A DNA stretch of 13,111 nucleotides, from IMG/VR virus record IMGVR_UViG_2703718818_000015, positions 1-13,111 of that record; one strand, given 5' to 3'. This document shows, one piece after another, positions 1 to 10,256 of this stretch (positions are counted from its first letter, which is position 1; every line of letters begins with the position of its first letter). This DNA comes from a virus (Duplodnaviria > Heunggongvirae > Uroviricota > Caudoviricetes). Under the pieces are notes generated by a model. The model saw nothing but the letters and a program-made list of their open reading frames with translations, searched no databases and was not told the origin of the DNA. Made by a program: the position numbers and the translations under genes.

Positions 1-1053
1 TTACGGGGTAATGCCAACCGTTGCCGCCACTTTGTCGCCACTTGGCAGCGTTGCCAGAGGATTGAAACGGAGCGCCGTTTCCAGATGATCCGGTGCCAGA
101 TGTGCGTAACGCATAGTCATTTTTATATCGTGGTGTCCGAGAATTTTTTGTAAGGCCAGAATGTTTCCACCCGACATCATGAAGTGCGCTGCAAACGTAT
201 GGCGCAGAACGTGTGTGAGTTGACCGCGAGGGAGCACGATAGACGTTTTTTCCATCACGGATAAAAATTGAAAATAGCAGTCTGTGAAGAAATTGAACCC
301 ATCGAGCGCCATGATCTCTTCGTAAAGCTCTTTACTGATAGGGATGCTTCTGTTTTTCTTCCCCTTCGTTCTGACAAAGGTAATTCGGTATTTGGTCACC
401 TGTGAGCGGGTAAGATTTACGGCTTCACGCCAGCGTGCGCCTGTGCTTAAGCATATCTTAACTACCAGTGCCAGAATTGGGTCCTGACGTTTGCAATCAG
501 CCAGCAATTCAACAATCTGCTCATGGGTAAGCCATGCCATCTCTTTTTCTGCGATGGTGAATTTTCGCATGTTCTCCAGTGGGTTCGGATACGACCATTC
601 GCCCAGACGGGATAGTTCGCTAAAAACACTACTTAGATAGCTTTGCTCCAGGTTAATGGTGACCGGGCTTGCTCCTTTCTTCCATTTCTCGCTGAAGTAG
701 ATCTCGCCTGTCAGGCGTTTATCTCGATAGTGGGCAAACATTTTAGAGGTGAGATCGGTTGCAAGAGGATTGCCCAGAGCGTCAACCATCAACAGCAATT
801 TGTCATAGACATGCTGCCCAGCTGTCAGAGATTTACCATGTAGTTTGAACCATAGTTCAACCACGTCTTTCAGTGTTCGACGATCCACTGATTCACCCAG
901 CCAGGGCTTTGCTTCGGCTTCTTCCATCGTGTGACGCTCAAAAGCCAGTGCTTCGCCTTTGGTGGCGAATTGTTTACGCACACGACGCCCACTTCGTCCG
1001 GCGGGGTAACATTCGCAAAGCCATTTCCCTGTGGTGAGTTTTCGTACTGCCAT
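1..1053 (-). CDS. int: Phage tyrosine integrase (P2/186 family), 350 aa
   Basis: 350-aa ORF with C-terminal tyrosine-recombinase pattern (...HVLRHTFAAHF...MRYAHL...). ATG at 1051-1053 is preceded on the minus strand by GGAGGG. Sits at the prophage end next to the repressor operon. Stop codon is at 1-3, so the CDS is complete. Confidence 0.9.
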   Translation of the reverse strand: MAVRKLTTGKWLCECYPAGRSGRRVRKQFATKGEALAFERHTMEEAEAKPWLGESVDRRTLKDVVELWFKLHGKSLTAGQHVYDKLLLMVDALGNPLATDLTSKMFAHYRDKRLTGEIYFSEKWKKGASPVTINLEQSYLSSVFSELSRLGEWSYPNPLENMRKFTIAEKEMAWLTHEQIVELLADCKRQDPILALVVKICLSTGARWREAVNLTRSQVTKYRITFVRTKGKKNRSIPISKELYEEIMALDGFNFFTDCYFQFLSVMEKTSIVLPRGQLTHVLRHTFAAHFMMSGGNILALQKILGHHDIKMTMRYAHLAPDHLETALRFNPLATLPSGDKVAATVGITP

Positions 1054-1058
1054 AAAAA

Positions 1059-1079
1059 ATGCCCTCCAGTGGAGAGCAT
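1059..1079 (-). promoter_or_regulatory. 21-bp imperfect palindrome/hairpin flanked by A6 and T5, overlapping the int Shine-Dalgarno; candidate terminator/attenuator or operator
   Basis: ATGCCCTCCAGTGGAGAGCAT pairs at 9 of 10 arm positions. Read on the minus strand the stem is followed by TTTTTT and then the int ATG. The GGAGGG SD lies inside the 3' arm. Confidence 0.4.
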
Positions 1080-1106
1080 TTTTACTGTATGTATAACCAG
1101 TGTCAA
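1078..1106 (-). promoter_or_regulatory. Putative sigma70 promoter for int (-35 TTGACA, 16-17 bp spacer, A/T-rich -10)
   Basis: The minus-strand reading of 1101-1106 is a perfect TTGACA. A TAAAAA/AAAAAT -10-like hexamer lies 16-17 bp downstream (plus-strand 1078-1084). Hexamer match only, no experimental support. Confidence 0.3.
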
Positions 1107-1131
1107 TGTATGATGCTTAAGGTTACATACA

Positions 1132-1503
1132 TCATAAGTACCGATATGATTGCGGGGCCGTTATGTTATCACCTAATGAACTTAGATGAAGTGGTTGGTC
1201 ATAGATTTTTAGATTACCAATTTCTATAGCAAAGGCCTTTTCTTTGCTATGAAAATATGAGTCAAAAAATTGTTTACTGATACCCGCGTATTGGCTTGTT
1301 TTTTCCCATACAATACTTGGCTTGTCTTCTATAACATCTGCAATGTCAAATTCAGCAACAACTTTACCGACAGGCATTGTTGAATAAATAACCACAGATT
1401 TTACATCCGGTTTTTTGAAAATTCCTTTTCGGAATTCAAATTTCTTTGTTCCATTAAGGATTTTTTCTACATGCTCTGGGTTAATTGACAATAATACTTT
1501 CAT
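1132..1503 (-). CDS. ASCH-domain (PUA-like fold) protein, ~123 aa; cargo gene 3
   Basis: ORF 1132-1515; likely ATG start at 1501-1503 (a TTG at 1513-1515 is the alternative). GxKxxExR signature of ASCH domains present (G-T-K-K-F-E-F-R, nt 1429-1452). Size and N-terminal KVLLSI...EKIL pattern are typical of stand-alone ASCH proteins. Start overlaps the 3' end of the upstream gene by 23 nt. Confidence 0.7.
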   Translation of the reverse strand: MKVLLSINPEHVEKILNGTKKFEFRKGIFKKPDVKSVVIYSTMPVGKVVAEFDIADVIEDKPSIVWEKTSQYAGISKQFFDSYFHSKEKAFAIEIGNLKIYDQPLHLSSLGDNITAPQSYRYL

Positions 1504-2551
1504 TGACGCCACCAAGTTTAATAATGCTATTAAACTGTTCGTTTGTTAACTTCATGATCCCCCAGTAAGCTCGCGGGGATAATCCTACTTCAGAAATAAG
1601 TTTAGCACGATTTAGTCTTTTGGGCAAAGCAAGGTTATATGTAAAGCTTATAATATATGGGTATTTTTTTGTTCTATAAAAACTTTTAAGCTCAGATTCT
1701 GTAAAAACAGAATATCTAGAACAGTAATTTAGAAATTCTTTCTCTGTAACGAAAGAGTTTATATTTCTAACTTTTTCTACTACACATAAAGAAGTAGCAA
1801 CAGAACGGTAATATGCAGGCCCTTGATTATCGGATGTTCGGTATATAACGATTATATCGTTTGGCTTCATTAATTCAACATCTGACATGCCACAAATATA
1901 TACTTTTCTAATGCTATTTGCATATGATACATCAGCAACAACGTCTGGTGACTCTGTAATTAATTTTGAGTCAGGGAATAAACGAGTATGAAATACGGGG
2001 TATATTGAAAGCAAGAATTTATTTTCACTGCCTCTGTTATTAATAAATGGATAATCTGACAGTATATCGCCCGTAAGAGCATTACTATTCATTTCTTTTA
2101 TTAGTACTCGCTCTACACCATTTTCAGATTCTTTTACTCCAATATCTATAAAGCCATAGATTTTGAATAGTCTAATTAAGTAGTCATGTTTTTCAAAAAC
2201 AGTCACATATATATTGTTAGCATTATTATCTAGAGCGTGATCGAATATTTTTTTTAAAAATCGTTGACCACGAAGAGTTCCTTTTGGATTAAATTTAAAT
2301 GTTCCAACTTTTAGATGAATACCATCAGGAATATTTGGTTTTGTATCTTCAATGATACCTACTTCTGTTTTTAGATACAAAAAACCATCAATTTTATTTT
2401 GTTCATCATAAAGGACATATGCATAATCATTTGATTTACATTTAGAATGGAACCAATCAATAAACCCATGAGCATAATCGGATTTTAAAGAGTCAAAAAA
2501 AACATCAGAAAAATCTACTTGATTAAAAGGTATGTATTTTAAGTTTTCCAT
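1481..2551 (-). CDS. Two-domain protein, 356 aa: N-terminal GNAT-like (acyl-CoA N-acyltransferase fold) region, C-terminal PUA/ASCH-like region; cargo gene 2
   Basis: ATG at 2549-2551 with AGGA ~10 nt upstream, 2 nt after the stop of the upstream gene. N-terminal ~145 aa shows GNAT-like pattern (...YVLYDEQNKIDGFLYLK... / ...NNIYVTVFEKHDYLIRLFKIYGF...). C-terminal ~170 aa has beta-rich PUA-like character (...KVYICGMSDVELMKPNDIIVIY...). Domain calls are by eye only. Confidence 0.65.
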   Translation of the reverse strand: MENLKYIPFNQVDFSDVFFDSLKSDYAHGFIDWFHSKCKSNDYAYVLYDEQNKIDGFLYLKTEVGIIEDTKPNIPDGIHLKVGTFKFNPKGTLRGQRFLKKIFDHALDNNANNIYVTVFEKHDYLIRLFKIYGFIDIGVKESENGVERVLIKEMNSNALTGDILSDYPFINNRGSENKFLLSIYPVFHTRLFPDSKLITESPDVVADVSYANSIRKVYICGMSDVELMKPNDIIVIYRTSDNQGPAYYRSVATSLCVVEKVRNINSFVTEKEFLNYCSRYSVFTESELKSFYRTKKYPYIISFTYNLALPKRLNRAKLISEVGLSPRAYWGIMKLTNEQFNSIIKLGGVNESIIVN

Positions 2552-2553
2552 GT

Positions 2554-3336
2554 TTACAATCCTATTTTAAAATCACATGATAAGCAAATTGATTTAGTTT
2601 TAGATATGACGGCGAGTGTTTTCCCCGGAGTTTGACAATTAGTACAAACATTCCAATTTTTCGGTTTTCCATCAATCTTATATATGTTGGCTAAAATATC
2701 ATCTAAAGGAAAAAATGTTTTCATCATGTCTATAATGCTTGCTGCATAGTTTTTCTTTGCCTCGGCTAATTTTTGTTCAGGCATGTTTTTATCATTTATC
2801 AAGCAATGAACCAGGTTATTAAGAGGCTCTTGATATATCTCCTCTCGAAAAATTAGAAATGCACTTAAAAAGTCTTTACGTATTTCTTTATTATTACTTT
2901 TACCTAAGTGAATTACTTTATTTCTTTCTTTGCGCAAAATATCATAAATTTCATTAAAGCGCGGTGAAAGATTTCGCCCACTGATACTTTGTGCTATTCT
3001 ATGTAGTTCGGTTGCGTCTAATGTTGAACATTCGAAAAAAGATTTGTTTTTATAGCAGTCTTTTACTTCTTTTAAAAGTAAATAAACACTATGCTCAGCA
3101 ATTATAGACTTTAGATATATTTCAGCAGAATTAAAGAGTATTACCAAGCCAGATTGAAAGAAACTCTCTTTTTCGGATATTAAGCGTTTCAGTCGTTGTT
3201 CTTCTGTTTCAGGTTGAGCTGGGGCTTGCAATAACTCAATGTCAGAATAAAAGTGTAAGTAGAATGTTTTAATGAAAAACTCAAGGTTCCTTTTGGCATA
3301 AAGAAGCATCTCTTCATTGTTAGGAAGGTCTGTCAT
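2554..3336 (-). CDS. HEPN-like protein with C-terminal C4 zinc ribbon, 260 aa; cargo gene 1 (putative RNase-type effector)
   Basis: ATG at 3334-3336 directly abuts the cI stop (3337-3339), with AAGGA 7 nt upstream. R-N-K-V-I-H (residues 138-143, nt 2908-2925) matches the HEPN Rx4-6H motif in a helical context. C-terminus has CxxC-x16-CxxC (C231, C234, C251, C254). Very AT-rich coding sequence. Confidence 0.65.
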   Translation of the reverse strand: MTDLPNNEEMLLYAKRNLEFFIKTFYLHFYSDIELLQAPAQPETEEQRLKRLISEKESFFQSGLVILFNSAEIYLKSIIAEHSVYLLLKEVKDCYKNKSFFECSTLDATELHRIAQSISGRNLSPRFNEIYDILRKERNKVIHLGKSNNKEIRKDFLSAFLIFREEIYQEPLNNLVHCLINDKNMPEQKLAEAKKNYAASIIDMMKTFFPLDDILANIYKIDGKPKNWNVCTNCQTPGKTLAVISKTKSICLSCDFKIGL

Positions 3337-4293
3337 TTAAATATCCTTATATATACCAAAACATTTTGCTATTACATTAATATCCGCTAATAGACATTCA
3401 AAAGTTGTACTTTCATTAGATACTTTTACTTTTGCAATTGGAATTCTGGTTAGATCTCTAACACTAAATTTTCCTTCGATTTCAACTAACCATTTTCCAT
3501 CGGTTACTTCATCAAATGCTTTGTCTGCAAGATATACATTTCCTTCATCTACTATAGATATGGGTTTTTTCACCTTGCTGGGTAACATGGTTTTATCAAA
3601 AGGGAGATAATTTGTATCAAACAACATACCATTTATAACTTTTTTCCGTGTGATAGCAATAATATCGCTCTTAGCGTCTTCAAAGACAGGACCATTACCG
3701 GTTGTTAGCCACATTAATGAAGCTCCGGTTTCAAGTGCGCACTGGATGATCCAATCAGCTGGAAAGGTATCTCTCATGTAACGATTGGCTAATGTGCTTT
3801 TTGAAACACCAATGTGATCCGCTAGAGCTTGCCTTGTCTTAAATCCATAGGCGATAACTATTCGCTCGATTGCCGCTTTTCCTCCTTGATTAACCTCAAT
3901 GAGGCTCTCGTTCTTTCGGTGAGTATTGTTCTCATTTGGGGATTTTGTGTCTAAAGTGAGAGAATGAATCTCCTTACCATCTTTATGGTGGTTCTGTTCT
4001 GTATTATGTGTGACAGCCTCTACTGTGTTATCGGTACCAAATGCCAACCATTCAACCGACACGCCAGTTTCCATGCTGCAGATTATGACCCAGTCGGCAG
4101 GGAAGGTATCACGAGCATATCTGTTCGCCATTGTGCTTTGGGATATCCCTAAGTGGTTACAGAATGCTTGACGTGAAGTGAAGCCATAAGCTTTCAAAAT
4201 TCGGTCAATGACCTGTTGTCCTCCACGATTCTGCATGATTACAGTTTTCATTGCATCATCAACATGGCGAAATGTGATTTTGTGTGTTGACAT
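3337..4293 (-). CDS. cI: Phage 186-type CI immunity repressor with duplicated N-terminal HTH domain, 318 aa
   Basis: Residues ~141-318 resemble 186 CI (HTH N-domain then oligomerisation C-domain). Residues 28-87 are an internal repeat of residues 141-200, roughly 60% identical by eye (both contain ...AYGF..RQA...G.S.ST.ANRY.RDTFPADW.I.C..ETG...WL). ATG at 4291-4293. Divergent from apl. Confidence 0.8.
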   Translation of the reverse strand: MSTHKITFRHVDDAMKTVIMQNRGGQQVIDRILKAYGFTSRQAFCNHLGISQSTMANRYARDTFPADWVIICSMETGVSVEWLAFGTDNTVEAVTHNTEQNHHKDGKEIHSLTLDTKSPNENNTHRKNESLIEVNQGGKAAIERIVIAYGFKTRQALADHIGVSKSTLANRYMRDTFPADWIIQCALETGASLMWLTTGNGPVFEDAKSDIIAITRKKVINGMLFDTNYLPFDKTMLPSKVKKPISIVDEGNVYLADKAFDEVTDGKWLVEIEGKFSVRDLTRIPIAKVKVSNESTTFECLLADINVIAKCFGIYKDI

Positions 4294-6209: not shown

Positions 6210-6436
6210 TGGCTGATGCAATGGATCTCGTACAGCAGCGCGTTGAAGAAGAACGCCAGCGCCATATCCGTGCTGCCCGTGCCAAAACGCCGGGCGTGTC
6301 CCGCGTGCTTTGCGTTGAGTGTGAAGCGCCAATTCCGCCAGCACGCCGCCGTGCCATTCCGGGTGTGCAGCTTTGCATTACCTGTCAGGAAATCGCAGAG
6401 CTGAAAGGTAAACATTACAACGGAGGTGCTGTATGA
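6209..6436 (+). CDS. TraR/DksA-family C4 zinc-finger protein, 75 aa
   Basis: C-x2-C-x17-C-x2-C (C35, C38, C56, C59), the spacing characteristic of DksA/TraR zinc fingers. AGGAG 8 nt upstream. Stop overlaps the dam start (ATGA). Confidence 0.75.
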   Translation: MADAMDLVQQRVEEERQRHIRAARAKTPGVSRVLCVECEAPIPPARRRAIPGVQLCITCQEIAELKGKHYNGGAV

Positions 6437-7290
6437 GCACCATCCTGAAATGGGCGGGAAATAAAACCGCCGTAATGTCCGAACTGAAAAAACATCTTCC
6501 TGCTGGTCCGCGACTAGTTGAACCTTTCGCGGGTTCCTGTGCTGTGATGATGGAGACGGATTATCCCTGCTATCTGGTTGCGGATATTAATCCTGATTTA
6601 ATCAACCTCTATAAAAAGGTTGCCGCTGATTGTGAATCGTTTATATCTCGCGCCAAAGTTTTATTTGAGATCGCAAACAGGGAGGTGGCTTATTACAACA
6701 TAAGGCAGGAGTTTAATTACTCAACTGAAATTACTGATTTCATGAAAGCGGTATATTTCCTGTATCTCAATCGTCACGGTTACCGTGGGTTATGTCGCTA
6801 TAACAAGAGCGGGCATTTCAACATTCCCTACGGTAATTATAAAAATCCGTATTTCCCTGAAAAAGAAATTCGCGCTTTTGCAGAAAAAGCCCAGCGAGCA
6901 ACGTTTATCTGCGCCAGCTTTGATGAAACGCTGGCGATGTTGAAGGCGGGGGATGTGGTGTATTGCGATCCGCCTTATGACGGTACGTTTTCCGGCTATC
7001 ACGCTGACGGCTTTACTGAAGATGACCAGTATCACCTGGCATCCGTTCTTGAACATCGGTCATCAGAAGGACATCCGGTCATTGTTTCTAACAGTGACAC
7101 ATCCCTGATCCGTTCGCTGTATCGCAATTTTACTCACCACTATATCAAGGTAAAACGCAGCATCGGCGTAGCAGCTGGTGAGAGTAAATCAGCAACAGAA
7201 ATCATTGCTGTTTCCGGGCCGCGCTGCTGGGTGGGATTTGATTATTCGCGTGGCGTGGATAGTTCTGCCGTGTACGGAGTACGTGCATGA
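6433..7290 (+). CDS. dam: Dam-family DNA adenine (N6) methyltransferase, GATC-type, 285 aa
   Basis: Close resemblance to E. coli Dam over the whole length (LKWAGNK SAM motif, LVEPF.G, ADIN.DLI.LY, FLYLNR.GY.GLCRYN, catalytic DPPY). GGAGG SD 7 nt upstream. Confidence 0.9.
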
Positions 7291-8333
7291 GCCATGCCGA
7301 TATGAGCAACTGCTGCGGCTTTAACGAGGCTGCCGCATCGTTCTCATGGAACAGCCCGAAAAAGGCCATTAACCCTTATCTGGACCCGGCGGAAGTTGCG
7401 CCGGTTTCTGCGCTTTCAAACCTGATCACTCTGTACGCTGCCGATAACGAGCAGGAACAACTGCGCCGCGAGGCACTGAGTGATCAGGTCTGGGAGCGTT
7501 ATTTCTTTAATGAATCCCGTGATCCTGTCCAACGCGAAATAGAGCAGGATAAGCTCATTAGCCGGGCAAAGTTGGCGCATGAGCAGCAGCGTTTTAACCC
7601 GGACATGGTCATTCTGGCAGACGTCAGCGCCCAGCCCTCCCATATCAGCAAGCCGCTGATGCAACGTATTGAATACTTCAGCAGCCTGGGCAGGCCAAAG
7701 GCTTATTCCCGCTATTTACGTGAGACGATTAAGCCATGTCTGGAACGACTGGAGCATGTACGCGACAGCCAGCTATCTGCATCTTTTCGTTTTATGGCAA
7801 GCCATGTAGGGCTGGACGGCCTGCTGATTCTGCCTGAAATGAGTCAGGATCAGGTGAAACGCCTGTCTACCCTTGTCGCTGCGCATATGAGCATGTGCCT
7901 TGATGCAGCTTGTGGTGATTTGTATGCCACCGATGACGTTAAGCCGGAAGAAATCCGCAAGACATGGGAAAAGGTGGCAGCGGAAACCCTGCGTCTGGAT
8001 GTCATCCCGCCTGCGTTTGAGCAACTCCGTCGGAAAAGAAACCGCCGTAAACCCGTGCCCTATGAACTCATTCCGGGTTCGCTGGCGCGTATGTTGTGCG
8101 CCGACTGGTGGTACCGGAAATTATGGAAAATGCGTTGCGAATGGCGGGAAGAGCAGTTGCGTGCTGTCTGCCTGGTCAGCAAAAAAGCATCTCCCTATGT
8201 CAGCTATGAAGCCGTGATGCATAAACGTGAGCAGCGCCGCAAGTCACTGGAGTTTTTCCGTTCTCATGAACTGGTGAACGAAGAGGGCGACACGCTGGAT
8301 ATGGAAGACGTGGTATCAGTGCAGCGCGGGTGA
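7287..8333 (+). pseudogene. A: Replication initiation gene A, N-terminal ~348-aa fragment (3' half deleted)
   Basis: Position after dam, as the replication gene in P2/186. C-terminal region resembles the remembered P2 gpA mid-region (...WWY.KL......W.E..L.AV..V.K..SPY.S..A....R.....LEF...). Full-length gpA is roughly twice this size, and the ORF is followed 46 nt later by tail gene U. Confidence 0.6.
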
Positions 8334-8379
8334 AGGCAAAAGCCAGGAGTAACTACAGCGATCAGGGGGGATACGACGC

Positions 8380-8850
8380 ATGATGATGGTGCTGGGATTG
8401 TACGTGGTGCCGTATCAGGAGCTGCAGTATCAACGCAGCTGGCGACATGCGGCAAACAGCCGGGTAAACCGACGTCCGTCCACGCAGTTTCTGGGACCGG
8501 ACAACGACATGCTGACGCTTTCCGGTGTTCTTATGCCGGAGATAACAGGTGGCAGGCTGTCGTTGCTGGCACTGGAGCAGATGGCAGAACAGGGGAAAGC
8601 ATGGCCCCTGATTGAAGGCAGCGGCACGATTTATGGCATGTATGTGATTGAGGGACTGAATCAGACTAAAACGGAGTTTTTCCGCGACGGTATGCCGCGC
8701 CGGATTGAGTTCACCCTGTCGCTCAAACGGGTGGATGAATCCCTGTCCGATATGTTCGGTGATCTCAGTGCGCAGCTGAATAATCTGCAGGGAACGGCAA
8801 CATCTGCCTTAAGCGATATCAGTAAAACGGTGGGAGGGCTTCTGTCGTGA
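8380..8850 (+). CDS. U: P2-type tail protein U, 156 aa
   Basis: Resembles remembered P2 gpU (MML.LG...; ...LSGVL.PE.TGG.L...L....AE.G.AWPL..G.G.IYGMYVI...F...G.PR.I.FTLSL.RVDESL). Stop overlaps the start of D (GTGA). Confidence 0.85.
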   Translation: MMMVLGLYVVPYQELQYQRSWRHAANSRVNRRPSTQFLGPDNDMLTLSGVLMPEITGGRLSLLALEQMAEQGKAWPLIEGSGTIYGMYVIEGLNQTKTEFFRDGMPRRIEFTLSLKRVDESLSDMFGDLSAQLNNLQGTATSALSDISKTVGGLLS

Positions 8851-9947
8851 ATTTCAGCTCTGAACTGCTTAACAAAGGCAACAAAACTCCGGCATTCAGC
8901 ATCAGTATTGAAGGCAGGGATATCACCACTGTGCTGGACAACCGCCTGATGGGGCTTACGCTGACGGATAACCGGGGCTTTGAAGCGGACCAGCTTGATC
9001 TGGAGCTGGACGACGCTGACGGAAAAATCGTGCTGCCGCGCCGTGGTGCGGTCATTACGCTGGCGCTGGGCTGGAAGGGGCAGCCGCTTTTCCCGAAAGG
9101 GGCATTCACGGTGGACGAGATTGAACACACTGGCGCACCGGACCGCCTGACTATCCGGGCGCGAAGTGCTGATTTTCGGGAAACGCTGAATACCCGCCGT
9201 GAAAAGTCGTGGCACAAGACCACGGTCGGGGAAGTGGTGAAGGAAATAGCCGCGCGGCACAAACTGAAGATGGCACTGGGTAAAGACTTGTCGGATAAAC
9301 CCGTGGAGCATATAGACCAGACCAATGAGAGTGACGCCAGTTTTTTGATGCGGCTGGCGCGCCAGTACGGTGCTATTGCGTCGGTGAAAAATGGCAATCT
9401 GTTATTCATCCGACAGGGACAGGGTAAAAGTGCCAGCGGTAAACCACTGCCGGTGATCACTATCACACGTAAGGACGGCGACAGTCACCGCTTTACCTTG
9501 GCAGATCGCGGAGCCTATACGGGCGTAATTGCCAGTTGGTTGCATACCCGCGAACCCGCGAAGAAAGAAAGCACAACGGTGAAGCGTAAGCGCAGGACTA
9601 AGAATCAGAAGAAAGAGCCGGAAGCGAAGCAGGGCGATTACCTGGTGGGTACGGATGAAAACGTGCTGGTACTTAATCGCACTTATGCCAACCGGAGCAA
9701 CGCTGAACGGGCAGCGAAAATGCAGTGGGAACGCCTGCAACGCGGCGTTGCGTCATTCTCGCTACAACTGGCGGAAGGGCGGGCAGATCTCTACACGGAA
9801 ATGCCTGTGAAGGTCAGTGGCTTTAAACAGCCGATAGATGATGCGGAATGGACCATTACGACTCTGACGCATACCGTCAGCCCGGATAATGGTTTTACGA
9901 CCAGTCTGGAGCTTGAAGTGAGGATTGATGATTTCGAAATGGAATGA
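8847..9947 (+). CDS. D: P2-type tail protein D, 366 aa
   Basis: Resembles remembered P2 gpD (TPAF.....G.DIT..L..RLM.LT.TDNRGFEADQLD.EL.DADG...LP.RGAV...). GTG start at 8847 with GGGAGGG ~10 nt upstream. Immediately precedes ogr as in P2. Confidence 0.85.
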   Translation: MNFSSELLNKGNKTPAFSISIEGRDITTVLDNRLMGLTLTDNRGFEADQLDLELDDADGKIVLPRRGAVITLALGWKGQPLFPKGAFTVDEIEHTGAPDRLTIRARSADFRETLNTRREKSWHKTTVGEVVKEIAARHKLKMALGKDLSDKPVEHIDQTNESDASFLMRLARQYGAIASVKNGNLLFIRQGQGKSASGKPLPVITITRKDGDSHRFTLADRGAYTGVIASWLHTREPAKKESTTVKRKRRTKNQKKEPEAKQGDYLVGTDENVLVLNRTYANRSNAERAAKMQWERLQRGVASFSLQLAEGRADLYTEMPVKVSGFKQPIDDAEWTITTLTHTVSPDNGFTTSLELEVRIDDFEME

Positions 9948-10037
9948 TTCTTCGCAATGGAGAACTTTTAAGTTTGCAAAATGGAATAATGCGGTATCAT
10001 TATTGTGAATTTAGCAAAAATGGGGAGAACTCGAAAA

Positions 10038-10256
10038 ATGATGATTTGCCCACTGTGTGGAAGTGCCGCCCATACTCGCAGCAGTTTTCAGGTATCTTCA
10101 TTGACCAAAGAGCGTTACAACCAGTGCCAGAATATTAACTGCAGCCATACTTTTGTAACCCATGAAACTTTTGTTCGTTCGATTGCAACGCCAAAAGAGT
10201 CAAATCCGGTTCAGCCGCATCCAATGAAATCAGGACAGGTGGCGCTCTCTCTTTGA
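10038..10256 (+). CDS. ogr: Ogr/Delta-family zinc-finger late-gene activator, 72 aa
   Basis: CPLC...C.N.NC zinc-finger arrangement and length matching P2 Ogr (72 aa). ATG at 10038 with GGGGAG 10 nt upstream. The longer ORF-track start (10005) is a GTG and is rejected. Confidence 0.85.
   Translation: MMICPLCGSAAHTRSSFQVSSLTKERYNQCQNINCSHTFVTHETFVRSIATPKESNPVQPHPMKSGQVALSL

What the first reader, a model, noticed from the sequence alone, without database searches (positions are those of the whole stretch)
1132..2551. GNAT-like/PUA-like fusion translationally coupled to a stand-alone ASCH protein
The 356-aa protein pairs an acyltransferase-like N-terminal half with a PUA-like C-terminal half. 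The next gene is a small ASCH protein with a clear GxKxxExR motif, and its start lies inside the 3' end of the upstream gene (23-nt overlap, different frame). ASCH and related PUA-like domains (EVE, YTH) are established readers of modified bases, and some ASCH enzymes remove N4-acetyl groups from cytidine. A writer-like GNAT fold next to reader/eraser-like PUA folds suggests sensing or marking of modified nucleic acid, possibly as the trigger for the HEPN-like effector. This is speculative.
Basis: inference. Interest (0 to 1): 0.7.

Follow-up and report, generated by a model that had tools for sequence, protein, structure and literature searches.

The report
Prophage GNAT–EVE acetyltransferase with ASCH partner
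The two overlapping genes are a real and typical example of a widespread, already predicted but never tested phage-conflict module (an acetyltransferase fused to a modified-base-reader fold, plus an ASCH protein), here carried with an extra RNase-like gene inside a decayed E. coli prophage.

Summary
A 356-aa ORF (1481-2551, minus strand) and a 123-aa ASCH ORF (1132-1503) overlap by 23 nt in different frames. The ASCH carries GTKKFEFR (GxKxxExR).

The pair is not new. It matches the PADLOC candidate system PDC-M11 end to end (2.4e-130 and 4.5e-48). It is the "(PIN)-GNAT-EVE + ASCH" operon described by Bell, Wolf and Koonin (2020), who cite Iyer et al. (2013), and noted by them as common in proteobacterial prophages. 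I found no experimental test.

This work adds three points:
- The ASCH partner is present in 80/80 loci from many phyla, with the identical 23-nt dual-coded overlap in 62.
- The HEPN gene forms a conserved three-gene unit with the pair in an enterobacterial clade, in two kinds of mobile element.
- The ASCH keeps the Lys/Glu residues that a 2026 preprint found essential for removing N4-acetylcytidine from tRNA.

The most likely function is a lysogen-expressed toxin-antitoxin-like or abortive-infection module based on reversible RNA acetylation. That function is inferred, not shown.

The parts
1481..2551 (-). M11A: 356-aa GNAT-EVE fusion protein (PADLOC PDC-M11A; PHROG 6345)
   Evidence: The ORF is listed. 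PDC-M11A matches at 2.4e-130 over residues 3-356. The family has 2613 clusters at 90% identity and 1336 representatives at 50%.
2087..2551 (-). GNAT-like N-terminal domain (about residues 1-155). Residues invariant in 65 homologues: W33, E63, K81, K86, Y115, G133, E147.
   Evidence: Support comes from profiles only. The acetyl-CoA loop is non-canonical (x-G95-E/Q-R97-F). No structure was predicted for this half.
1484..2080 (-). PUA-like (EVE/ASCH-type) C-terminal domain, residues 158-356. Invariant residues in 65 homologues are P168, H188 and K216. D232, Y237 and R238 are conserved in at least 90%. It has no GxKxxExR motif.
1132..1503 (-). M11B: 123-aa stand-alone ASCH protein, GKER subgroup
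   Evidence: Pfam ASCH scores 25.2 bits, above its cut-off. PDC-M11B matches at 4.5e-48. ZmASCH (5guq/5gus) matches at 5e-8 and shares the IYAT, W, YF and PQS signature residues. A homologue is present in 80 of 80 loci.
1429..1452 (-). ASCH octapeptide G18-T-K20-K-F-E23-F-R25
   Evidence: The sequence is shown. Conservation across 74 sequences is shown (K20, E23, R25 in all; G18 in 97%). The equivalent Lys and Glu were essential for tRNA ac4C removal in TthASCH, EOLA1 and TRIP4 (preprint).
1481..1503 (-). 23-nt dual-coding overlap between the M11A 3' end and the ASCH 5' end
   Evidence: The same overlap occurs in 62 of 80 loci, and most positions are at least 80% conserved at the nucleotide level (ATGAAAGTnTTATTaTCnATTAAgCC).
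2554..3336 (-). 260-aa HEPN-like protein with a C-terminal zinc ribbon. It is an accessory gene specific to this clade.
2908..2925 (-). HEPN Rx4H motif (R138 NKVI H143)
   Evidence: It is invariant in 24 sequences.
3337..4293 (-). 186-type CI repressor with a duplicated N-terminal HTH. Its stop codon abuts the HEPN gene's ATG.
   Evidence: Phage_CI_repr matches at 9.6e-58 in two stretches, and Phage_CI_C also matches. The junction reads TAAATG. This allele occurs only together with the cassette.
1..1053 (-). Prophage integrase, downstream of the cassette on the same strand
   Evidence: The ORF is listed and the RefSeq annotation is.
1054..1131 (-). Spacer between the ASCH gene and int, with a GC-rich hairpin followed by a T-run just before the int ATG
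   Evidence: I read this from the sequence (gctctccactggagggcatttttt). The consensus terminator scan did not call it.

Best explanation
**What it is.** The two genes are a standard GNAT-EVE + ASCH pair. This is PADLOC candidate system PDC-M11 and the '(PIN)-GNAT-EVE/ASCH' operon of Bell, Wolf and Koonin (2020). Here the pair is joined by a clade-specific HEPN/zinc-ribbon gene. All three are cargo in the lysogenic cI-to-int transcription unit of a decayed P2/186-like E. coli prophage.

**Most likely mechanism (inferred).**
- The lysogen makes all three proteins from the cI transcript.
- The PUA-like domain directs the GNAT-EVE protein to a nucleic acid, probably tRNA or another RNA, which it acetylates using acetyl-CoA.
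- The ASCH protein is made in fixed proportion through the conserved overlap. It reverses or restrains that acetylation as an amidohydrolase, acting like an antitoxin.
- Phage infection upsets the balance, translation fails, and the HEPN RNase adds RNA cleavage. In other lineages a PIN, TIR or membrane add-on takes the HEPN protein's place. The infection is aborted, or the prophage is stabilised.

**Status.** Gene order, folds, conserved residues, partner conservation and domain fusions are shown here. Expression, substrate, enzyme activities, trigger and phenotype are not.
For: **Identity**
- Both proteins match PDC-M11A and PDC-M11B end to end. The literature description of the operon matches what I found independently.

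**Functional linkage of the two genes**
- The ASCH partner is present in 80 of 80 loci. 71 of 80 have a 23- or 29-nt overlap.
- Natural fusions exist: ASCH-GNAT-EVE, ASCH-PIN-GNAT-EVE and PIN-GNAT-EVE-ASCH.

**Conflict or defence context**
- Homologues are fused to PIN and TIR domains.
- Linked genes include putAbiC-fused P-loop kinases.
- Immediate neighbours include type I MTase, GajB, AriA, NsnA/C, SoFic, PifA, PD-T4-2 and PDC-S68.
- In Enterobacter the trio sits beside RhuM/PDC-S05. PDC-S05 gave phage protection in PMC12881386.

**Lysogenic expression (inferred)**
- The genes run cI, HEPN, GNAT-EVE, ASCH, int on one strand, with junctions of 0 nt, 2 nt and -23 nt.
- The same layout occurs in Hafnia and Yersinia prophages.

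**RNA-directed chemistry**
- The ASCH keeps invariant K20 and E23. The equivalent residues were essential for tRNA ac4C removal in GKER-type ASCH proteins.
- The ASCH resembles the C-terminal domain of a ribosomal L22 fusion protein (1.2e-12).
- Two of the add-on effector types (PIN, HEPN) belong to RNase families.

**HEPN gene as part of the unit**
- It co-diverges with M11A and lies on the same contigs. HEPN identity falls from 80% to 35% while M11A falls from 89% to 58%.
- The trio is conserved both in the prophage cI-int slot and in a non-prophage or P4-like island.
Against: - **No experimental support found.** Ten literature searches found no experimental test of PDC-M11 or GNAT-EVE.
- **The GNAT site is atypical.** The acetyl-CoA loop lacks the canonical Q/R-x-x-G-x-G/A, and the usual catalytic Tyr position is Phe or Leu. 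Activity or substrate may therefore be unusual.
- **The GNAT fold rests on profiles only.**
- **The closest solved ASCH does not fit well.** ZmASCH was inactive on free ac4C, had no significant effect in vivo in the preprint, and is reported to be an ssRNA RNase. It is also an orphan gene in Zymomonas.
- **Effector-like genes are optional.** 31 of 80 loci carry no extra linked gene, so an effector such as HEPN is not required.
- **Published opinion differs.** Bell et al. suggested that prophage GNAT-EVE might serve the phage against host restriction.
- **Signs of decay.** One of the 28 E. coli copies has a frameshifted GNAT-EVE gene.
Confidence: 0.45

Rival explanations
1. The module senses modified bases rather than writing and erasing them. 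The EVE-like and ASCH pockets bind a modified base or nucleotide that appears during infection, such as hypermodified phage DNA or modified mononucleotides released by chromosome breakdown. Binding switches on the GNAT, and the HEPN, PIN or TIR add-on where present, to stop the infection. The ASCH acts as a reader, not an enzyme.
For: The structural neighbours of the C-terminal domain are base readers: THYN1 bound to 5mC DNA, VcaM4I, YTH domains, McrB-N and PD-T4-3. Bell et al. argue that the ASCH proteins in these operons bind modified DNA, citing HTH-ASCH and HsdS-ASCH fusions. A PUA-Cal-HAD system from E. coli is reported to sense m6-dAMP (abstract listed).
Against: The EVE-like domain's most conserved residues are mostly polar or charged (H188, K216, D232, R238) rather than an aromatic cage. 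The ASCH retains a full catalytic-type GKER set. No DNA nuclease domain was found in the cassette. Nearly 40% of loci have no separate effector.
Confidence: 0.2
2. The pair works for the phage as counter-defence or DNA marking. GNAT-EVE acetylates a base in DNA, or harms the host, to protect the phage from host restriction. The ASCH regulates or reverses this. Iyer et al. (2013) proposed acetylation of a DNA base, and Bell et al. (2020) suggested that prophage GNAT-EVE protects phages against host restriction, both as reported in PMC7641849.
For: GNAT-EVE without PIN is common in prophages. In my set, 8 of 80 loci have a CI repressor at position -2 or -3 upstream. The PUA-like folds closest to the C-terminal domain bind DNA bases.
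Against: The genes sit in the lysogenic cI-to-int unit and abut the cI stop codon. They are not among the replication or late genes, where a phage DNA-modifying enzyme would be expected. The cassette persists in a prophage that has lost most of its late genes. The trio also occurs outside prophages, beside other defence candidates. The add-ons are suicide-type effectors (PIN, TIR, AbiC, HEPN).
Confidence: 0.1
3. The pair is a pure addiction (toxin-antitoxin) module. It stabilises the prophage or island and has no role against incoming phages.
For: Bell et al. classify these operons as putative toxin-antitoxin systems. The tight coupling, with the toxin-like enzyme first and its partner second, is consistent with that reading. 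The cassette is retained in a decayed prophage.
Against: Many loci lie in defence-gene neighbourhoods. The variable effector fusions are more typical of immune systems. The two roles are not mutually exclusive.
Confidence: 0.15
4. The ASCH protein is an ordinary housekeeping enzyme that salvages N4-acetylcytidine, like E. coli YqfB. The acetyltransferase is an unrelated metabolic enzyme.
For: Some ASCH proteins hydrolyse free ac4C (PMC6972931, abstract listed).
Against: The motif is GKER, not the YqfB-type GK[T/S]R. The gene pair is mobile and patchy: it is in 28 of 5426 E. coli genomes, lies in a low-GC island, and shows 45-50% identity across phyla. It is always paired with GNAT-EVE.
Confidence: 0.03

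Closest known systems
(PIN)-GNAT-EVE + ASCH (+AAA_17) operons (Bell, Wolf and Koonin 2020, BMC Biol, PMC7641849, citing Iyer et al. 2013 NAR). This is PADLOC candidate system PDC-M11.
   Same: The two-gene core, gene order and domain architecture are the same. The location in a gammaproteobacterial prophage is the same. I recovered independently the same accessory repertoire: PIN fusions, AAA_17-type P-loop proteins and extra ASCH genes.
   Different: This lineage adds a HEPN/zinc-ribbon gene directly upstream, which that paper does not mention ('HEPN' occurs 0 times). I also found a TIR-fused homologue and the conserved 23-nt dual-coded overlap; I did not check whether that paper describes either. 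The family has no experimental characterisation, so 'known' here means predicted.
DarT/DarG-type writer/eraser toxin-antitoxin systems (comparison from my own knowledge; an analogy, not homology)
   Same: The proposed logic is the same. An enzyme that modifies nucleic acid is encoded first. A tightly coupled second gene encodes an enzyme that removes the same modification.
   Different: The folds and chemistry are unrelated (ADP-ribosylation of DNA versus presumed acetylation). Nothing here was tested biochemically.
GNAT toxins of type II TA systems (TacT, AtaT, ItaT, KacT), which acetylate aminoacyl-tRNA (reviewed in Yeo 2018, cited in PMC7641849)
   Same: Both have a GNAT catalytic domain in a mobile two-gene module. 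tRNA is a plausible target for both.
   Different: Those toxins are single-domain proteins of about 170 aa, with an upstream DNA-binding antitoxin. This protein has a fused PUA-like domain and a downstream ASCH partner. No profile hit to those families appeared.
GKER-type ASCH proteins: ZmASCH (PDB 5guq), TthASCH, EOLA1 and the TRIP4 ASCH domain
   Same: The fold and the G-K-E-R octapeptide are the same. ZmASCH shares further signature residues (IYAT, W, YF, PQS) at E = 5e-8. The preprint reports tRNA ac4C removal that depends on the Lys and Glu.
   Different: ZmASCH is an orphan gene with no GNAT-EVE neighbour. It was a weak deacetylase and is a reported ssRNA RNase. The window protein's activity is unknown.
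HEPN ribonuclease toxins and effectors (HEPN-MNT toxins, Csm6/Csx1, Abi-type HEPN proteins)
   Same: The 260-aa neighbour has a helical HEPN-like core and an invariant R-N-x-x-x-H motif.
   Different: It has extra N-terminal helices and a C-terminal Cys4 zinc ribbon. It has no MNT or CARF partner. Only weak profile hits were found (DUF3644 at 2.4e-5, Csx1 at 0.0096). Foldseek found nothing.
Modification-dependent (type IV) restriction enzymes with PUA/EVE reader domains (VcaM4I, McrB-N, PD-T4-3)
   Different: No HNH, PD-(D/E)xK or GIY-YIG nuclease domain is present. The fused catalytic domain is an acetyltransferase.

Membership tests
PDC-M11 / GNAT-EVE + ASCH operon | Protein A matches the PDC-M11A profile over its full length | tested here: met
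   PDLC04419 matches at 2.4e-130, residues 3-356 against profile positions 11-357 of 357.
PDC-M11 / GNAT-EVE + ASCH operon | Protein B matches the PDC-M11B profile and lies next to A on the same strand | tested here: met
   PDLC04425 matches at 4.5e-48 over residues 1-123. The gene lies directly downstream with a 23-nt overlap. The same arrangement is found in 71 of 80 loci.
PDC-M11 / GNAT-EVE + ASCH operon | The N-terminal domain of A has a GNAT acetyltransferase fold | tested here: met
   Profiles only. PHROG 13728 matches at 4.7e-23. Acetyltransf_1 hits 22 of 65 homologues, best 6.8e-9. A family profile hits PaiA at 5e-4 and other GNATs in the PDB. The window protein itself is below the Pfam cut-off (14.7 against 23.6 bits). 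No structure was predicted for this half.
PDC-M11 / GNAT-EVE + ASCH operon | The C-terminal domain of A is an EVE/PUA-like beta-barrel | tested here: met
PDC-M11 / GNAT-EVE + ASCH operon | The module confers anti-phage or toxin-antitoxin activity | not testable with these tools
   No experimental report was found in the held literature.
ASCH superfamily, GKER subgroup | Pfam ASCH match above the gathering score | tested here: met
   25.2 bits against a cut-off of 21.2.
ASCH superfamily, GKER subgroup | GxKxxExR octapeptide with Lys and Glu present | tested here: met
   The sequence is GTKKFEFR. K20, E23 and R25 are conserved in all and G18 in 97% of 74 sequences.
ASCH superfamily, GKER subgroup | N4-acetylcytidine (tRNA) amidohydrolase activity | not testable with these tools
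   The inference rests only on the preprint 10.64898/2026.02.27.708502.
YqfB-type ac4C amidohydrolases | GK[T/S]R octapeptide (Thr or Ser in place of Glu) | tested here: not met
   The position is Glu23, invariant in the family.
HEPN superfamily (the 260-aa neighbour) | Helical HEPN core fold | tested here: met
HEPN superfamily (the 260-aa neighbour) | Rx4-6H catalytic motif | tested here: met
   R138-N-K-V-I-H143 is invariant in 24 sequences.
HEPN superfamily (the 260-aa neighbour) | Ribonuclease activity | not testable with these tools
   No test was possible.
Type II GNAT toxin systems (TacT/AtaT type) | Single-domain GNAT toxin with an upstream RHH/DUF1778-type antitoxin | tested here: not met
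   The architecture is a two-domain 356-aa protein with a downstream ASCH partner. No Pfam or NCBIfam hit to those families was found.
Type IV modification-dependent restriction enzymes with PUA/EVE readers | Reader domain fused or coupled to a DNA nuclease (HNH, PD-(D/E)xK, GIY-YIG) | tested here: not met
   No such domain is present in any of the three proteins.

The most novel reading that the evidence does not exclude
The GNAT-EVE protein and the ASCH protein form a genuine writer/eraser pair for a nucleic-acid acetyl mark, for example N4-acetylcytidine on tRNA. The balance between them acts as an immune switch, and phage infection flips it. In this lineage the switch licenses a HEPN RNase. 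That would make it the first defence system built on reversible RNA acetylation. The deeply conserved 23-nt dual-coded overlap would set the writer-to-eraser ratio.
Probability: 0.2. Interest if true: 0.85.

Novelty: new variant of a known kind. Interest (0 to 1): 0.45.

Why it matters
The two-gene core is very widespread. The family has 1336 representative clusters at 50% identity, and the loci I examined span many bacterial phyla. It has been predicted to be a conflict system since 2013-2020, yet nobody has tested it.

A 2026 preprint reports that GKER-type ASCH proteins strip N4-acetylcytidine from tRNA. This turns a vague 'reader/writer' idea into a concrete hypothesis: an acetyltransferase and its own deacetylase acting as an immune or toxin-antitoxin switch. 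The hypothesis can be tested in E. coli.

The E. coli prophage copy is a convenient place to start. It is compact and sits in a genetically tractable host. Its separately encoded HEPN gene can be deleted cleanly, which is harder for the PIN and TIR domains that are fused into the protein in other lineages.

If the function turns out to be ordinary toxin-antitoxin stabilisation, the finding is of routine interest.

Tried and rejected

- The search for related loci with the 65-sequence alignment failed because no conserved stretch was available. I repeated it with 14 closer sequences.
- One Pfam call failed because I gave wrong coordinates.
- The afdb50 fold library was not available.
- Iyer et al. 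2013 (PMC3763556) is not held. I cite it only through Bell et al.
- Literature searches for an experimental validation, or for another name for the system, found none. The terms tried were PDC-M11, GNAT-EVE, ASCH with acetyltransferase or GNAT or anti-phage or antiphage, EVE domain with acetyltransferase, P2-like hotspot terms, and RefSeq accessions.

**Ideas tested and rejected**
- I tested whether ZmASCH, the only biochemically studied close relative of the ASCH protein, comes from a GNAT-EVE operon. It does not. Its upstream neighbour is a secreted 375-aa protein that does not match the M11A profile.
- I tested whether the HEPN gene is a general component of the system. It is not: 0 of 80 diverse loci have it.
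- I considered Rst_3HP or other P2-hotspot systems and the PD-T4, PD-T7 and PD-Lambda systems. The PADLOC scan gave only PDC-M11 hits for the pair and weak generic HEPN hits for the third gene.
- The alternative cargo gene at the same prophage slot in other strains (314 aa) has no PADLOC hit. I therefore do not claim that the cI-int slot is an established defence hotspot.

**Not pursued**
- I considered a programmed frameshift that would fuse the two proteins. No slippery site is evident in the overlap, so I did not follow this up.
Full report
**Setting**

The window is E. coli chromosome carrying a decayed P2/186-like prophage. On the minus strand it has an integrase (1-1053), then a low-GC island (28-33% GC against about 50% around it), then a 186-type CI repressor (3337-4293). 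On the plus strand it has the early genes (CII-like, Fil, Dam methylase). Next comes a replication-endonuclease ORF of only 348 aa, then what I read by eye as tail genes U and D (not profile-tested) and ogr, and then the host genes ybjL and grxA. In an intact relative the endonuclease is 804 aa and the head genes follow it.

The island holds three genes: a 260-aa ORF (2554-3336), the 356-aa ORF (1481-2551) and the ASCH ORF (1132-1503). The complete island is present in 28 of 5426 complete E. coli genomes.

**Check of the observation**

- The ASCH gene's conserved ATG is at 1503, which agrees with RefSeq's 372-nt gene. The mechanical ORF list starts earlier, at a TTG at 1515.
- The upstream gene ends at 1481, so 23 nt are shared in different frames.
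- ASCH residues 18-25 read GTKKFEFR.
- The junctions upstream are just as tight. The cI stop is followed immediately by the 260-aa gene's ATG (TAAATG). That gene's stop is 2 nt from the 356-aa gene's ATG.

**What the proteins are**

*The 356-aa protein.*
- It matches PADLOC PDC-M11A end to end (2.4e-130) and PHROG 6345 (8e-155).
- Its N-terminal 150 residues are GNAT-like by profiles. They match PHROG 'acetyltransferase' at 4.7e-23. Pfam Acetyltransf_1 hits 22 of 65 diverse homologues. A family profile hits PaiA, Naa50 and other GNATs in the PDB. The window protein on its own is below Pfam's cut-off.
- This domain lacks the GxKxxExR motif. Its invariant residues are P168, H188 and K216, with D232, Y237 and R238 conserved in at least 90% of sequences.

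*The small protein.*
- It passes Pfam ASCH and matches PDC-M11B (4.5e-48).
- Its closest solved relative is ZmASCH (5e-8).
- Across 74 homologues K20, E23 and R25 are conserved in all and G18 in 97%, along with Y40, W66, Y83 and a C-terminal PQS..Y.

*The 260-aa protein.*
- It has no significant family hit. The only hits are weak PADLOC matches to HEPN-type profiles.
- Its 24 homologues share an invariant R138-N-K-V-I-H143 and four C-terminal cysteines conserved in at least 90% of sequences.

**Evidence from related sequences**

The GNAT-EVE family is large: 2613 clusters at 90% identity and 1336 representatives at 50%.

Longer homologues carry extra domains. These include N-terminal PIN, ASCH-PIN, ASCH alone and TIR, and one protein with a C-terminal ASCH.

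I fetched 80 loci from one-genome-per-species data. They span many lineages, including Proteobacteria, clostridia and bacilli, Bacteroidales, spirochaetes, Chloroflexota, cyanobacteria, Acidobacteria, Thermotogota and Verrucomicrobia, at 43-75% identity.
- Every locus has an ASCH homologue.
- The ASCH ATG overlaps the upstream gene by exactly 23 nt in 62 loci and by 29 nt in 9.
- The overlap is conserved at the nucleotide level, because both reading frames are constrained. The ATG lies in conserved Asn/Asp-Glu codons of the upstream gene. The TAA stop lies in the ASCH's conserved Ile-Lys codons. A conserved GG-rich stretch lies 6-12 nt upstream of the ATG.

Accessory genes vary between loci.
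- 31 of 80 loci are bare pairs.
- 22 of 80 have a P-loop protein in the neighbourhood, usually about 175 aa and of AAA_17/AAA_18 type. Two of these are fused to a putAbiC domain.
- 7 have a second ASCH gene and 3 have a second GNAT gene.
- 8 have a CI repressor two or three genes upstream, which marks a prophage setting.
- Immediate neighbours include several known or candidate defence genes.

**The third gene**

The HEPN gene is absent from all 80 diverse loci. Its 24 clusters come from Enterobacterales plus Photobacterium. Several lie on the same contigs as the closest GNAT-EVE clade (matching contig lengths), and four look-ups confirmed adjacency directly.
- The order cI, HEPN, GNAT-EVE, ASCH, int recurs in Hafnia and Yersinia 186-like prophages.
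- In Enterobacter bugandensis the same trio sits outside that slot. It lies next to SymE and a RhuM/PDC-S05 gene, and in one case near a P4-alpha-type primase.

The trio therefore moves as a unit in this clade. In Brenneria an unrelated 358-aa protein, whose C-terminus looks hydrophobic and possibly membrane-spanning to my eye (not tested), occupies the same position. In other E. coli prophages at the same attachment site, the cI-int slot holds a different 314-aa gene.

**Comparison with what is known**

Bell, Wolf and Koonin (2020) describe exactly this class.
- EVE is fused to the C-terminus of a GNAT, often with an N-terminal PIN.
- Almost all such operons encode an ASCH protein, and often an AAA_17 ATPase.
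- The PIN forms sit near restriction-modification systems.

They call these putative toxin-antitoxin systems and state that none of the modules has been characterised. They credit Iyer et al. (2013) with an earlier description. PADLOC lists the pair as candidate PDC-M11. One 2026 preprint merely reports PDC-M11 in an E. coli O157:H7 strain.

The pair is therefore a known kind of system that has been predicted but not tested. HEPN is not mentioned in that paper. I did not check it for the TIR fusion or the conserved overlap. The HEPN three-gene form is the main point of difference, and it is a variation on the known kind rather than a new kind.

**How it most likely works**

*Shown here:* gene order and junctions, folds, invariant catalytic-type residues, obligatory pairing, natural fusions and swappable suicide-type add-ons.

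*Inferred:*
- The cassette is transcribed with cI in lysogens.
- The PUA-like domain brings the GNAT to a nucleic acid. RNA is more likely than DNA for three reasons. PIN and HEPN are RNase families. The ASCH resembles the C-terminal domain of a ribosomal L22 fusion. GNAT toxins acetylate aminoacyl-tRNA (reviewed in a paper cited).
- The ASCH counteracts the acetylation. The 2026 preprint reports that all 19 ASCH proteins tested remove ac4C from tRNA in vitro. It also reports that the octapeptide Lys and Glu are essential in GKER-type members. The window protein has both residues, and they are invariant in its family.

*Caveats:*
- ZmASCH performed poorly in that study and is a reported RNase.
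- The GNAT's acetyl-CoA loop is atypical.
- Nothing shows phage protection.

I put 0.45 on the combined statement. The identity part is near certain and the mechanism part is about one in three.

**Rivals**

The alternatives are:
- a modified-base or nucleotide sensor, with a precedent in the PUA-Cal-HAD abstract listed;
- a phage-serving DNA-marking or counter-defence function, which the lysogenic-operon position argues against;
- plain addiction (toxin-antitoxin stabilisation);
- housekeeping ac4C salvage, which the GKER motif and the mobile, patchy distribution argue against.

**Verdict**

The functional story is plausible but untested. Novelty is modest, because the system was already predicted in the literature and in PADLOC.

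Noticed in passing
window 3337-4293 (-): The CI repressor is 318 aa as an ORF (RefSeq annotates 299 aa). It contains two tandem Phage_CI_repr HTH domains before the C-terminal domain, whereas relatives are 186-199 aa. This allele occurs only in the 28 E. coli genomes that carry the cassette. Its 3' (C-terminal-coding) end shares the island's low GC.
   Followed up: partly
window 7287-10256: The prophage is degraded. The replication-endonuclease ORF is 348 aa, against 804 aa in an intact relative. It runs straight into what I read as tail genes U and D and ogr, so the head genes and most late genes are deleted. The cargo island and immunity region are retained.
   Followed up: partly
window 1481-1503 and L002-L081: The 23 nt shared by the two genes are conserved at the nucleotide level across phyla (ATGAAAGTnTTATTaTCnATTAAgCC). 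Both the start and the stop codon are embedded in conserved codons of the other frame. This is an unusually old and rigid dual-coding junction.
   Followed up: yes
L082 3684-4628 and L083 3687-4631 (E. coli prophages at the same rcdA/ybjL site): Related 186-like prophages carry a different single 314-aa hypothetical gene (WP_001678408.1) between cI and int. The slot is therefore a variable cargo site. That protein has no PADLOC hit.
   Followed up: partly
L090-L093 (Enterobacter bugandensis): The HEPN/GNAT-EVE/ASCH trio also occurs outside the prophage cI-int slot. There it lies next to a SymE toxin, a RhuM/PDC-S05 gene and a small GNAT. In L093 it is downstream of a P4-alpha-type primase.
   Followed up: partly
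L002 5888-6964 (Brenneria populi): In a prophage with the same cI-to-int layout, the position of the HEPN gene is taken by an unrelated 358-aa protein whose C-terminus looks hydrophobic to my eye. It has no Pfam or PADLOC hit. Homologues lie near the pair in two other loci (L026, L041).
   Followed up: partly
L094 5001-5447 (Zymomonas mobilis) and L096 2280-4902 (Neorhizobium): ZmASCH, the crystallised RNase-active ASCH, shares the signature residues of this ASCH family but is an orphan gene next to a secreted protein. A Neorhizobium relative instead overlaps a 721-aa GNAT-containing protein by 17 nt, in an island with a type ISP restriction-enzyme domain, a reverse transcriptase and an integrase.
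   Followed up: partly
L084 6889-7287 (Photobacterium swingsii): Here the ASCH gene is inverted and lies convergent to the GNAT-EVE gene, with a hairpin between them. The GNAT-EVE C-terminus has changed accordingly. This is a rare break of the overlap rule.
   Followed up: partly
L001 12428-13499 (E. coli MFDS1006657): One of the 28 E. coli copies has a frameshifted GNAT-EVE gene, annotated as the pseudogene 'N-acetyltransferase'.
   Followed up: no
window 1054-1131 (-): A GC-rich hairpin followed by a T-run ends right at the integrase ATG, and a TTGACA-type promoter-like match lies at 1106-1078. This could uncouple int from the cargo transcript. The consensus terminator scan did not call the hairpin.
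   Followed up: no
window 6433-7290 (+): The prophage encodes a Dam-type DNA adenine methylase. This may be relevant if the PUA-like domains sense methylated nucleotides, but it was not examined.
   Followed up: no
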